Notes under the pieces: model-generated | Told to the model about the DNA's origin: nothing | Database searches by the model: none | The model's input: only the letters and a program-made list of their open reading frames with translations | Made by a program: the position numbers and the translations under genes | Assembly: GCA_964587835.1 (NCBI GenBank) | Contig: CAZPMN010000001.1 | Span: 88,968 to 152,967, forward strand | DNA: 64,000 nucleotides | Source of the DNA: an uncultured bacterium | GTDB lineage: Bacteria > Auribacterota > Erginobacteria > Erginobacterales > Erginobacteraceae | Direction: 5' to 3' | Shown here: one piece after another, positions 36,397 to 37,796 of the stretch | How the letters are laid out: each line of letters starts with the position of its first letter | How positions within the stretch are numbered: the stretch's first letter is position 1

Positions 36397-36930
36397 TTAG
36401 GGGAAGCAGATCCGGGTGCAGATCCATTTCGGGGCCTTGATTATCCGGCCCAGCAGGAGGGTTCCTCGGGAGAGGTGGATGCCCTTCCGGGCGGGGACGG
36501 GGAGGTAGGTTTCCAGGCGGGAGAGAAAAGCGATCAGCCGGTTGGCTCCGCGGACCAGGGGCCGGTCGAGGCGGTATCTTCTGCCCGAACCGGATCTCTC
36601 GATCATATTCACCGTTCCCCGGATCATCTCGCGGGGGACCGGCCGGTCCGGGCGGAGCAGTGCATCCCCCTTGGTGGTGATCCATCCGCCGGTGCCGGCG
36701 CGGATGACCCGGTGGATGATCATCCGGCCGGCCTCGTCCCGGAATATAATGCAGTCTCCGGCCCTAAAGGCGCCCGGGTCGAGCGGGGACCGGGGAACGA
36801 AGGTAACGGAGTCAGCGCGCCGGATAAACGGGTGCATACTCAACCCCGTTGGCTGGAGGCGCAGAGAGCAGTTCAGCCGGCCGGGGCTGCTGTCGGTCGT
36901 GGTATCCGGGGGAGGTGATATCGCCGTCAC
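36397..36930 (-). CDS. S24/S26-family serine peptidase (signal-peptidase-I/LexA-like Ser-Lys dyad)
   Basis: GLSMHPFIRRADSVTF (Ser motif), GDCIIFRD...MIIHRVIR, WITTKGDALL (Lys motif, KGDN-like). 4-nt overlap with the upstream kinase gene. Confidence 0.6.
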   Translation of the reverse strand: MTAISPPPDTTTDSSPGRLNCSLRLQPTGLSMHPFIRRADSVTFVPRSPLDPGAFRAGDCIIFRDEAGRMIIHRVIRAGTGGWITTKGDALLRPDRPVPREMIRGTVNMIERSGSGRRYRLDRPLVRGANRLIAFLSRLETYLPVPARKGIHLSRGTLLLGRIIKAPKWICTRICFP

Positions 36931-37796
36931 GGGTGCGAGCGGATAAAATCCAGAAAGTAGTTTGCCGCGGAGAGATCCGGACGGAAGCCGAAACTGTAGG
37001 CCGGTGTCTCTTGAATGATCGCTTCCGCCGCGGAAACGGCTTGATCCAGGTCCTTCCCTTGGTTGAAGGGAAGGAAAATCTGCTGGAGCAGCTGCCGCAG
37101 GGCGGAAACTCGGTCGATGCTTTGAATTTGGTTCCGCCGGCAGTGGTAGATGAAGAATATCCCCCGCAATGGCCCGGAATCAGCCTTCCGGAATTCGGTT
37201 CGTGGGTTCCAGGGGGTGCCGAAGAGGTGAAAGCCACTGCCGGTCCGGCGGACGATAACCTTGTCTTCCCCCAATGCCGCCGGTCCTGCCGCGCGGCCGA
37301 CCAACTCCGCCCAGGTGCTCTTCCCGCCGCCGGCCGGAGCGGGAAAGATAAAAGTCCCCCCGTCAAACTTCGCCGCCGCGGCGTGGGCGACCAGGCCCTG
37401 GCGGTGGAGCAGGAGGTGGGAAAAGAGCATCAGGTCCAGGCAGGGGAGGGGAAACCAGGTGACCGCCCGGCTCCAGCGTTCAATCCAGATATCACCCCGG
37501 GAACAATCCTCCTCCATAACGGCCTTCTTCCAGAAGGTGGGAGAATCCGCCTTCCAGCGCAGGAGGAAAACCCGCCGGGAGTCCTGCCGGATCACTTTCC
37601 AGGTAAAGGCTTGCCCGGGCGGGCTGGGAAGGGAGTCCAGGGTCCCGGGATTCAGGCCGGGATGAACGTGCCAGATGTATTCCGGGGTTACGGCCGGGGT
37701 GCGGAAAGGAAGGTAAATATCCTCGAGGCGCGCTGATGGATCGGCCAGGTTGAGCTGGAGGTTAGCTCCGCCGATGCGCAGATAGACCTCTTGCAT
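36927..37796 (-). CDS. HprK-related kinase (standalone HPr kinase/phosphorylase C-terminal-like P-loop domain)
   Basis: LVAHAAAAKFDGGTFIFPAPAGGGKSTWAELV parallels the HprK catalytic segment LHG..V...G.GVLI.G.SG.GKSE.ALEL. No HprK N-terminal domain. ATG at 37796 (the track starts one codon earlier at TTG). Confidence 0.7.
   Translation of the reverse strand: MQEVYLRIGGANLQLNLADPSARLEDIYLPFRTPAVTPEYIWHVHPGLNPGTLDSLPSPPGQAFTWKVIRQDSRRVFLLRWKADSPTFWKKAVMEEDCSRGDIWIERWSRAVTWFPLPCLDLMLFSHLLLHRQGLVAHAAAAKFDGGTFIFPAPAGGGKSTWAELVGRAAGPAALGEDKVIVRRTGSGFHLFGTPWNPRTEFRKADSGPLRGIFFIYHCRRNQIQSIDRVSALRQLLQQIFLPFNQGKDLDQAVSAAEAIIQETPAYSFGFRPDLSAANYFLDFIRSHP

What the first reader, a model, noticed from the sequence alone, without database searches (positions are those of the whole stretch)
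36927..37796. Standalone HprK-like P-loop kinase with no HPr in sight; its substrate is probably the peptide, not HPr
The protein keeps the HprK C-terminal catalytic signature (H....K.D....I...AGGGKST.A..L) but lacks the N-terminal regulatory domain. It is translationally linked to the candidate precursor upstream and to an S24/S26 peptidase downstream. The distant relative of HprK acts on a protein Ser; here the nearest substrates are the Ser/Thr-rich core NTPSITTPYDSE of the small peptide, or a sugar/lipid intermediate of the EPS pathway.
Basis: inference. Interest (0 to 1): 0.6.

Follow-up and report, generated by a model that had tools for sequence, protein, structure and literature searches.

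The report
Peptide-maturation kinase of HprK type
The gene encodes a real, probably active enzyme of the HPr-kinase/PEP-carboxykinase fold that always sits beside a small three-cysteine peptide and its maturation enzymes, so it most likely phosphorylates that peptide, as proven relatives do in lasso-peptide and "LPP" pathways, although the exact residue it targets here is unknown.

Summary

It is not a true HprK. It has no HprK N-domain, no HPr lies in the window, and it falls below every curated cut-off. It is a divergent member of the uncharacterised ScmC/HprK-related superfamily (PF27840).

In 12 close and 14 distant loci the gene directly follows a radical-SAM/SPASM gene and a YxxP-leader, three-Cys precursor peptide. 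A PqqD recognition protein is detected at nearly all loci long enough to show it. An archaeal-type signal peptidase, an NTP_transf_5 protein and a C25 peptidase are present in many loci. Some distant cassettes hold only PqqD, rSAM, peptide and kinase, with no glycan genes, which argues against a sugar or lipid substrate.

The closest characterised systems are the lasso-peptide kinases and the 2026 "LPP" family. Both known acceptor positions (core Ser3, C-terminal Ser) are absent here. A peptide substrate is therefore likely (about 0.6) but the site is unresolved. Verdict: a new variant of a known kind.

The parts
36927..37796 (-). HprK/PEPCK-fold P-loop phosphotransferase of the ScmC/HprK-related superfamily (289 aa from the ATG; 290 aa from the TTG at 37799). 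It has an N-terminal beta-rich domain (~1-120) and a C-terminal nucleotide-binding domain (~122-290).
37314..37343 (-). Walker A / P-loop P153-A-P-A-G-G-G-K160-S-T162. The His139 codon is at 37383-37385 and the Asp179 codon at 37263-37265.
   Evidence: Read directly. G157, G159, K160, T162, H139 and D179 are invariant. They align to HprK H138, GVGKSE and D176-D177.
37809..37967 (-). 52-aa precursor peptide MKKKKLYRKPELKVVELSFNTAQMAVCNTPSITTPYDSEFGIPCNLTACPNT. It has a Lys-rich N-terminus, a YxxPxL leader and three invariant Cys (27, 44, 49). Its start overlaps the rSAM 3' end by 47 nt.
37921..39036 (-). Radical SAM/SPASM-type peptide maturase (371 aa).
   Evidence: PF04055 at 8e-26; best NCBIfam hits are SPASM enzymes such as AhbD, MftC, PqqE and ScmE, all below cut-off. 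Syntenic in all loci.
36397..36930 (-). Archaeal/SipW-type signal peptidase I-like protein (S26), the likely leader peptidase. The catalytic Ser lies in GLS31MHP, the His in IIH73RV, and an Asp at D89/D95. This holds only if the GTG at 36930 is the start.
   Evidence: TIGR02228 at 1.3e-9, 38 bits, below the 51.85 cut-off. Sequence. Syntenic. Fused to the kinase in P0061.
33214..36240 (-). PorU-like C25 cysteine peptidase (1008 aa). It is conserved next to the cassette in all nine close loci whose contig reaches the gene, and a C25 gene was also found in two distant loci.
   Evidence: PF01364 at 8e-76; NF033707 PorU at 6.6e-71, below cut-off..
31106..32197 (-). NTP_transf_5 nucleotidyltransferase-family protein. 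It is the counterpart of the N genes of phosphorylated lasso and LPP clusters.
   Evidence: PF14907 at 5e-47..
30744..31118 (-). Discrete PqqD-type RiPP recognition element.
   Evidence: PQQ_PqqD at 3.5e-8; lasso PqqD at 1.3e-7; ScmD at 6e-6; all below cut-off. PF05402 precomputed.
39041..41151 (-). Two tandem WecA/MraY-type polyprenyl-phosphate sugar-phosphate transferases. They lie directly upstream of the rSAM gene in most close-clade loci; two members show only one of the pair.

Best explanation
The gene encodes an ATP-dependent phosphotransferase of the HprK/PEPCK fold that serves as a maturation enzyme for the ribosomal peptide encoded 12 nt upstream.

Proposed pathway:
1. The 52-aa precursor is bound through its YRKPEL leader by the discrete PqqD protein.
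2. The rSAM/SPASM enzyme acts on the three invariant Cys.
3. The kinase transfers phosphate, via P-loop Lys160/Ser161 with Asp179 as catalytic base positioned by His139, to a Ser/Thr hydroxyl of the core.
4. The NTP_transf_5 protein may build on that phosphate.
5. The SipW-type peptidase removes the leader, probably after Thr21 (..SFNT|AQM.., by analogy with LPP ..FET|AQS..).

Shown here: the fold, retention of the catalytic residues, strict gene linkage with the peptide, and the shared enzyme set.
Inferred: kinase activity, the peptide as substrate, the order of steps and the cleavage site.

The acceptor residue is unknown. My best guess is Thr29 or Ser31, next to Cys27.

For: Catalytic residues: hhalign against a validated HprK sequence gives 80% probability and E 1.5e-5. 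H139 aligns with H138, GGGKST with GVGKSE, and E178-D179 with D176-D177. This matches the H...GxxGxGKS...DD motif shown by mutagenesis to be needed in the lasso kinase BsfK (PMC10368454).

Linkage: rSAM-peptide-kinase is present in 12/12 distinct close loci. The peptide lies immediately upstream of the kinase in 14 distant loci at 25-40% identity. L030, L036 and L038 show only PqqD-rSAM-peptide-kinase, flanked by unrelated genes.

Precedent: HprK-like kinases phosphorylate RiPP precursors in an RRE- and YxxPxL-dependent manner. Examples are BsfK (core Ser3), PadeK and PsmK (C-terminal Ser), and LppK (core Ser3, with a SipW-type leader peptidase and an NTP-transferase, inside polysaccharide loci).

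In the wider family the precursor ends in an invariant Ser (120/120 top hits), which is the acceptor type of paeninodin-class kinases. One homologue, P0061, is fused to the S26 peptidase.
Against: There is no biochemical evidence for this protein or for any ScmC-type protein.

The window-clade peptides lack both acceptor positions known from characterised systems: position +3 after the putative cleavage site is Met or Leu, and there is no C-terminal Ser.

Five residues near the active site differ systematically from the wider family (A142, E178, K180, N198, P199), so specificity, or even the substrate class, may have changed in this clade.

The two-domain shape resembles a miniature PEPCK, an enzyme with a small-molecule substrate.

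The query matches curated models only weakly (TIGR04249 at 20.5 bits against a cut-off of 125).

In this clade the cassette is surrounded by glycan genes that offer alternative substrates.
Confidence: 0.6

Rival explanations
1. The enzyme phosphorylates a small molecule or a glycan/lipid-linked intermediate of the surrounding polysaccharide pathway, for example a sugar or an undecaprenyl-linked unit, rather than the peptide.
For: The window cassette lies inside a ~30 kb glycan locus containing a Wzx-like flippase, many GT4 enzymes, a GT9, two WecA-like transferases and a PMT_2. The best structural matches over both domains are PEPCKs, which act on small molecules. No known acceptor Ser is present in the peptide.
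Confidence: 0.12
2. It is an ATP-binding accessory or scaffold protein of the rSAM maturation complex, or a phosphorylase or ATPase coupled to leader cleavage, that does not leave a phosphate on the final product. One version: transient phosphorylation of Thr/Ser is followed by elimination, giving a dehydro residue that a Cys attacks.
For: The protein is tightly coupled to rSAM, peptide and S26 peptidase, and is fused to the peptidase in P0061. In LPP, the peptidase processes unphosphorylated precursor poorly (PMC13381572), which shows kinase-peptidase coupling. Conserved Thr/Ser lie next to Cys in this clade (C-[HNS]-[TS]-x-[ST]). HprK itself is a bifunctional kinase/phosphorylase (established knowledge).
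Against: All residues needed for phosphotransfer are invariant. No lyase-type domain is recognisable in the cassette. Characterised relatives leave stable phosphates on the peptide.
Confidence: 0.15
3. It is a genuine HPr (or HPr-like protein) kinase involved in carbon regulation that merely happens to lie in this locus.
For: It shares the fold and catalytic residues with HprK.
Against: There is no HprK N-terminal domain. There is no match to TIGR00679 or PF07475 for the query. No HPr is found in the window. Synteny with a RiPP cassette is strictly conserved across phyla. Identity to HprK is only ~10-13% in structural alignments.
Confidence: 0.02

Closest known systems
LPP (linear polyphosphorylated peptide) biosynthetic clusters of Bacillota: LppK kinase, LppB RRE, LppS SipW-type peptidase, LppN NTP-transferase (Nat Commun 2026, PMC13381572)
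   Same: [quoted passage not shown] Both clusters are embedded in polysaccharide biosynthesis loci. Both leaders have YxxPx[VL]. The leader-core junction is very similar: LPP ..FET|AQS.., window ..FNT|AQM...
   Different: The window cassette adds a radical-SAM/SPASM enzyme, three invariant Cys in the core and a PorU-like C25 peptidase. No MsbA-like exporter was found among the ORFs scanned. The LppK acceptor Ser3 is Met here. The host is Auribacterota (PVC group), whereas the paper describes LPPs as restricted to Bacillota.
HprK-like lasso-peptide precursor kinases (PadeK, ThcoK, PsmK, BsfK)
   Same: The catalytic motif H...GxxGxGKS...DD corresponds to H139...A154xxG157xG159K160S161...E178D179. 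These kinases depend on a PqqD RRE and a YxxPxL leader. They co-occur with a nucleotidyltransferase gene. They act on the linear precursor. In the wider family of the window protein, the precursors end in an invariant Ser, like paeninodin-type substrates.
   Different: The locus has no lasso cyclase and no B2 protease. An rSAM/SPASM enzyme takes their place. The first Gly of the motif is Ala and the first Asp is Glu in this clade. The window peptide has neither a C-terminal Ser nor a core Ser3.
ScmC (SynChlorMet cassette protein C, TIGR04249 / Pfam PF27840) and HprK-related kinases A/B (TIGR04352, TIGR04355)
   Same: All are ~290-aa HprK-related proteins encoded with PqqD-like and rSAM/SPASM proteins, and all have unknown function. 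The precomputed PF27840 label is carried by the query (marked weak) and by 25 of its 28 listed homologues. The only NCBIfam hits of the query are these three models. Of 119 family members scanned, 110 hit HprK_rel_B and 88 hit ScmC.
   Different: Every hit is far below the curated cut-offs (20.5 bits against 125). The SynChlorMet cassette has two rSAM proteins (ScmE, ScmF), whereas this locus has one. No precursor was defined for SynChlorMet (from my memory of the TIGRFAMs description).
HPr kinase/phosphorylase (HprK/P) and PEP carboxykinase
   Different: The query has no HprK N-domain and no HPr nearby. At 290 aa it is about half the size of PEPCK. Sequence identity is 7-13%. The query matches neither family's curated models.

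Membership tests
HPr kinase/phosphorylase (TIGR00679; PF07475 + PF02603) | C-terminal catalytic domain fold with P-loop, catalytic His and Asp | tested here: met
HPr kinase/phosphorylase (TIGR00679; PF07475 + PF02603) | Score above the family models' cut-offs | tested here: not met
   There is no hit to TIGR00679 or PF07475 at E <= 0.01. The PDB profile search gives HprK only E 0.5.
HPr kinase/phosphorylase (TIGR00679; PF07475 + PF02603) | N-terminal HprK domain | tested here: not met
   There is no PF02603 hit. Residues 1-120 form a different beta-rich domain, and HprK structures align over only 113-130 residues.
HPr kinase/phosphorylase (TIGR00679; PF07475 + PF02603) | HPr substrate encoded in the genome or locus | tested here: inconclusive
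   No HPr is found in the 64-kb window by tblastn. The rest of the genome was not available.
ScmC / PF27840 (SynChlorMet cassette protein C) | Match to the family model | tested here: inconclusive
   The precomputed PF27840 hit on the query is marked weak, and 25 of its 28 listed homologues carry the label. TIGR04249 gives E 2.5e-4 and 20.5 bits against a cut-off of 125. PF27840 is not in the local Pfam copy.
ScmC / PF27840 (SynChlorMet cassette protein C) | Cassette with a PqqD homologue and two rSAM/SPASM proteins (ScmD, ScmE, ScmF) | tested here: not met
   The locus has one rSAM and one PqqD. Both match ScmE and ScmD only below cut-off.
HprK-like RiPP precursor kinases of lasso pathways | Catalytic motif H-G-G-G-K-S-D-D | tested here: met
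   H139, G157, G159, K160, S161 and D179 are present. The first Gly is Ala154 and the first Asp is Glu178.
HprK-like RiPP precursor kinases of lasso pathways | Discrete RRE and a YxxPxL leader in the precursor | tested here: met
   PqqD lies at 30744-31118. The leader is Y7-R-K-P10-E-L12, with Y and P invariant in 23 aligned peptides.
HprK-like RiPP precursor kinases of lasso pathways | Lasso cyclase (Asn-synthase-like) and B2 protease in the cluster | tested here: not met
   None appears among the genes annotated between about 19.5 and 49.5 kb.
HprK-like RiPP precursor kinases of lasso pathways | Acceptor Ser at the C-terminus or at core position 3 | tested here: not met
   The window peptide ends ..CPNT and has Met at +3 after the putative junction. 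Distant relatives do end in Ser.
HprK-like RiPP precursor kinases of lasso pathways | Demonstrated phosphorylation of the precursor | not testable with these tools
   This needs co-expression or an in vitro assay with mass spectrometry.
LPP biosynthetic clusters (PMC13381572) | Core gene set: SpI-type peptidase + RRE + HprK-like kinase + NTP-transferase | tested here: met
   The match is at the level of protein families. Homology to the Lpp proteins themselves was not tested because no sequences were available.
LPP biosynthetic clusters (PMC13381572) | MsbA-like exporter | tested here: not met
   No ABC exporter is found among the ORFs scanned. Not every ORF in the window was scanned.
LPP biosynthetic clusters (PMC13381572) | Leader motif YxxPxVLxHQxIxFETxxS with phospho-acceptor Ser3 | tested here: not met
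   YxxPxL and ..FNT|AQ.. are present, but HQ is absent and position +3 is Met.
LPP biosynthetic clusters (PMC13381572) | Linear product with no other core-modifying enzyme | tested here: not met
   An rSAM/SPASM gene and three invariant Cys are present in every locus.

The most novel reading that the evidence does not exclude
The window gene belongs to a very large, unnamed RiPP class. At least 4,889 precursor clusters at 90% identity were found. The 120 best-scoring all have three Cys, an invariant 'CK' and a C-terminal Ser. In this class an HprK-like kinase is a core enzyme alongside an rSAM/SPASM maturase.

In the Auribacterota clade the system has been rewired. The acceptor Ser is lost, the active-site neighbourhood has changed, and the cassette is inserted between two WecA-like initiating transferases and a PorU-like C25 'sortase'. 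The cross-linked peptide may therefore be phospho-linked or transpeptidated to a surface glycan, making a ribosomal peptide-polysaccharide conjugate.
Probability: 0.15. Interest if true: 0.8.

Novelty: new variant of a known kind. Interest (0 to 1): 0.55.

Why it matters
HprK-like kinases that phosphorylate ribosomal peptides have so far been demonstrated only in lasso pathways and in the Bacillota LPP pathway described in 2026.

This locus shows the same module (kinase, PqqD RRE, SipW-type peptidase, NTP-transferase) joined to a radical-SAM/SPASM maturase and a three-Cys peptide. It occurs in a PVC-group candidate phylum, again inside a polysaccharide locus.

The wider rSAM + kinase cassette appears to be very common in metagenomes. 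The kinase profile finds 1,432 representatives at E <= 1e-30, and thousands of precursor clusters exist. I found no paper describing it.

The locus offers a concrete, testable entry point: one peptide, one kinase and one rSAM enzyme. It could open a possibly large class of phosphorylated, thioether-type RiPPs and address the recurring link between such peptides and surface-glycan loci.

Tried and rejected
Things tried that led nowhere:
- A single-sequence phmmer search of the query against the PDB gave only noise.
- A profile search of the PDB gave P-loop-only hits, with PEPCK at E 0.019 and HprK at E 0.5. These were suggestive but not significant, so I relied on fold search and hhalign instead.
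- The local Pfam copy has no hit for the query. PF27840 is known only from precomputed labels.
- The AFDB50 fold library was not available.
- A literature search for 'ScmC/SynChlorMet' returned only unrelated acronyms.
- The JBC 2016 paeninodin paper is not held.
- No paper was found with 'PEEAVLG', with 'SPASM + RiPP + HPr kinase', or with 'HPr kinase + radical SAM + precursor peptide' relevant to this cassette.
- The search for related loci with the 119-sequence alignment failed because the alignment was too diverse. A 16-sequence alignment worked.
- NCBIfam has no model for the precursor peptides, either close or distant.

Readings considered and rejected:
- A true HPr kinase, because there is no N-domain, no HPr and the RiPP synteny is conserved.
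- A chance ORF, because it is conserved with pLDDT 91.

Not attempted:
- A separate fold search of the N-terminal domain.
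Full report
OBSERVATION. The ORF lies on the minus strand at 36927..37799. It opens with a TTG immediately followed by an ATG at 37796. The public gene call for the identical protein (P0001, 289 aa) uses the ATG. The P-loop is encoded at 37314-37343, His139 at 37383-37385 and Asp179 at 37263-37265.

Upstream, a 52-aa ORF (37809-37967) ends 12 nt before the ATG, and its start overlaps the 3' end of a radical-SAM gene (37921-39036) by 47 nt. Downstream, an S26-type peptidase ORF (36397-36930) begins with a GTG that overlaps the kinase stop codon (GTGA).

One amendment is needed. 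The protein is not a bare catalytic domain. Residues 1-~120 form a conserved, beta-rich domain (strands at 3-9, 12-18, 41-47, 66-72, 75-81, 91-96 and 101-106). This domain is unrelated in sequence to the HprK N-domain.

IS IT HprK-LIKE? Sequence methods alone are weak. Local Pfam gives nothing. NCBIfam gives only sub-threshold hits to ScmC (E 2.5e-4, 20.5 bits against a cut-off of 125), HprK_rel_A and HprK_rel_B.

A PDB search confirmed it as a bona fide HprK (E 8e-125 to 1KO7). The alignment gives 80% probability and E 1.5e-5. It aligns His139 with His138, GGGKST with GVGKSE, and Glu178-Asp179 with Asp176-Asp177. These are the catalytic His, P-loop and Asp-Asp of HprK.

The same eight-residue motif (H148-G163-G166-G168-K169-S170-D186-D187) was dissected by mutagenesis in the lasso-peptide kinase BsfK. 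H148, G163, K169, S170, D186 and D187 proved important for activity, whereas the G166A and G168A variants kept almost full activity (PMC10368454).

FAMILY. Close relatives are few: 28 at E <= 1e-3, from Candidatus Auribacterota and other PVC-group MAGs where a name is given. A full HMMER scan of 1.84 billion cluster representatives with the family profile finds many more: 19,524 proteins at E <= 1e-3, 10,473 at <= 1e-10 and 1,432 at <= 1e-30. Those listed are mostly about 290 aa and match along both domains.

I scanned 119 of these against NCBIfam. HprK_rel_B was hit by 110, ScmC by 88, HprK_rel_A by 49, HPr(Ser) kinase by 32 and PEPCK by 14. Against Pfam, 25 hit Hpr_kinase_C. All hits are below cut-off. 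Precomputed labels call most of these proteins PF27840 'ScmC'. The window protein is thus a divergent member of a large, catalogued but functionally uncharacterised HprK-related superfamily.

CONTEXT. In all 12 distinct close-clade loci the order rSAM, peptide, kinase is the same, and the S26-type peptidase follows the kinase in the 11 whose contig extends past it. The full order is GT4, WecA-like, WecA-like, rSAM, peptide, kinase, S26-type peptidase, C25 peptidase, NTP_transf_5, PqqD. It is seen wherever the contig is long enough, although two members show only one WecA-like gene. The window's NTP_transf_5 (PF14907, 5e-47) and PqqD lie at 31106-32197 and 30744-31118.

The module persists in relatives of only 25-40% identity. 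L009 and L021-L023 come from protein look-ups. L026-L039 are a sample of metagenome loci. Fourteen of these loci have a homologous short ORF immediately upstream of the kinase, usually preceded by PqqD and rSAM.

L022 and L023 also carry NTP_transf_5 and a C25 peptidase but no glycan genes. L030, L036 and L038 show only the four genes PqqD-rSAM-peptide-kinase, flanked by unrelated genes (an FMN dehydrogenase, PilZ, PfkB, DeoR and an MFS sugar transporter). One homologue, P0061 (463 aa), is a fusion of the kinase-like protein with the S26 peptidase. It is a single metagenomic case and should be treated with caution.

Exceptions exist. In L018 the kinase gene is 3 kb from the PqqD-rSAM-peptide genes. 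In L019, L020 and L043 no partner was detected.

THE PEPTIDE. The 12 close-clade peptides share a Lys-rich N-terminus, followed by Y-x-[KRP]-P-[EQ]-[VLI]..[ED]L[STD]F[NT]x[AS][QL][ML]..C-[HNS]-[TS]-x-[ST].., and ..C-x-[LIFM]-[TSA]-x-C. Across 23 aligned peptides the invariant positions are Tyr7, Pro10, Leu17, Cys27, Cys44 and Cys49.

A profile search finds at least 4,889 peptide clusters. None has a name or a Pfam domain, and NCBIfam has no model for them. The 120 best hits are strikingly uniform: all have exactly three Cys, all have 'CK' at the first Cys, and all end in Ser (GS in 102).

The window clade is a divergent branch of this family. It has no C-terminal Ser, it has C-[HNS] instead of CK, and it has Thr/Ser at Cys1+2 in 12/12 peptides. 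In parallel, five kinase positions close in sequence to the catalytic residues are fixed differently in the clade than in the wider family: A142/G, E178/D, K180/R, N198/H and P199/G. This is consistent with co-evolution of enzyme and peptide, but it reflects a single evolutionary event and so is weak evidence.

WHAT IS KNOWN. HprK homologues are proven peptide kinases in RiPP pathways.
- PadeK, ThcoK and PsmK phosphorylate the C-terminal Ser of linear lasso precursors. In pseudomycoidin a nucleotidyltransferase then adds hexoses to that phosphate (review PMC8498205).
- BsfK phosphorylates core Ser3. It needs the PqqD-type B1 protein and the YxxPxL leader, and its cluster also has an N gene (PMC10368454).
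- The closest system is the LPP family (PMC13381572). Its clusters, often embedded in capsular-polysaccharide loci of Bacilli, encode an archaeal-type signal peptidase (LppS), a discrete RRE (LppB), an HprK-like kinase (LppK), an NTP-transferase (LppN) and an MsbA-like pump.
- LppK polyphosphorylates core Ser3. LppS, together with LppB, cleaves after Thr(-1) (..FET|AQSNWK). LppS processes unphosphorylated precursor poorly.

The window peptide reads ..ELSFNT|AQMAVC.., which is the same junction context with Met in place of the acceptor Ser. The window S26 protein has the Ser/His/Asp arrangement of this peptidase type (GLS31MHP, IIH73RV, D89/D95), but only if the GTG at 36930 is used. The public gene call (146 aa) starts after the catalytic Ser.

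MECHANISM. I propose that the protein is the kinase of a RiPP pathway. PqqD binds the YRKPEL leader. The rSAM/SPASM enzyme modifies the three Cys, probably forming thioether-type links; this is an inference from the family of the enzyme. The kinase phosphorylates a core hydroxyl. NTP_transf_5 may elaborate the phosphate. The SipW-type peptidase removes the 21-residue leader.

What is shown here is the fold, the retained catalytic residues, the gene linkage and the shared enzyme set. What is inferred is the activity, the substrate, the order of steps and the cleavage site.

The acceptor is unresolved, because both precedented positions are missing. The conserved Thr29 and Ser31 next to Cys27 are my best guess. 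Overall confidence that the peptide is the substrate is about 0.6.

RIVALS.
(i) A glycan or small-molecule kinase (0.12). The surrounding 19.5-49.5 kb glycan locus and the PEPCK-like shape favour this. The glycan-free distant cassettes argue against it.
(ii) A non-product-forming role, such as a scaffold, phosphorylation-elimination, or coupling to leader cleavage (0.15).
(iii) A true HPr kinase (0.02).

NOVELTY AND INTEREST. The kind of enzyme, an HprK-like RiPP kinase working with an RRE, an NTP-transferase and a SipW-type peptidase, is known. The combination with an rSAM/SPASM maturase, a three-Cys core and a PorU-like C25 peptidase is, as far as I could find, undescribed. So are the occurrence outside Bacillota and the loss of the canonical acceptor Ser. 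I rate it a new variant of a known kind, with interest 0.55.

DEAD ENDS. See Tried and rejected. The AFDB50 library was unavailable. The paeninodin JBC paper is not held. The ScmC literature search returned only noise. The first attempt at a metagenome scan failed because the alignment was too diverse.

Noticed in passing
window 33214-36240 (-); also L022 9706-14046 and L023 8112->14873: A PorU-like C25 cysteine peptidase (T9SS-sortase-like, 1008 aa) lies next to the RiPP cassette in a PVC-group organism. It is conserved in all nine close loci whose contig reaches the gene. Much larger C25 proteins (1446 aa and >2594 aa) sit next to two distant cassettes. Its role is unknown; it could be a second protease or a transpeptidase acting on the peptide.
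   Followed up: partly
window 36397-36930 (-): The public gene call for the S26-type peptidase (146 aa) starts after the catalytic Ser motif GLSMHP. The GTG at 36930, which overlaps the kinase stop by 4 nt, restores the Ser/His/Asp set. The annotated start is therefore probably wrong.
   Followed up: partly
P0061 (463 aa, metagenomic protein): This is a fusion of an ScmC-like kinase domain (1-~305) with an S26 signal-peptidase-like domain (~320-460; motifs GASMNPTI and VHRVV). It could be a genuine Rosetta-stone fusion or an assembly or frameshift artefact of two overlapping genes.
   Followed up: partly
precursor-peptide family (P0290-P0409 and >4,800 more): This is a very large unnamed family of 52-62-aa peptides. 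The pattern is YxxPx[VI]..L[RK]PEEAVLGxCK...C...C..GS, with exactly three Cys and an invariant C-terminal Ser in the 120 best hits. It has no Pfam or NCBIfam model, and I found no paper on it.
   Followed up: partly
window 37921-37967: The precursor-peptide start codon lies 47 nt inside the 3' end of the rSAM gene. The same overlap recurs in the homologous loci (for example L008 rSAM 7792-8874 and peptide 8840-9001).
   Followed up: no
window 39041-40102 and 40099-41151 (-): Two tandem, overlapping WecA/MraY-type phosphoglycosyl transferase paralogues lie directly upstream of the rSAM gene. The pair is conserved in most close-clade loci; L016 and L017 show only one. It is unclear why two initiating transferases are kept together with the peptide cassette.
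   Followed up: no
L026 811-987 and 2066-2239: Two paralogous precursor genes flank the kinase gene in one distant locus. Both end in Ser (..YYSIS and ..TTYGS).
   Followed up: no
L020 9473-10468 and 10465-11310: Two ScmC-like genes lie in tandem, with no detectable rSAM, PqqD or peptide nearby. This is a different use of the family.
   Followed up: no
L004 13908-14601, L008 14853-15549, L002 10314-10849: Toxin-antitoxin-type gene pairs (PhdYeFM/PIN; DUF4160/DUF2442) are inserted between genes of otherwise syntenic cassettes.
   Followed up: no
window 51784-53718 (+) and 57879-60479 (+): Ordinary housekeeping chaperone genes (DnaK/Hsp70 and ClpB) flank the glycan locus.
   Followed up: no
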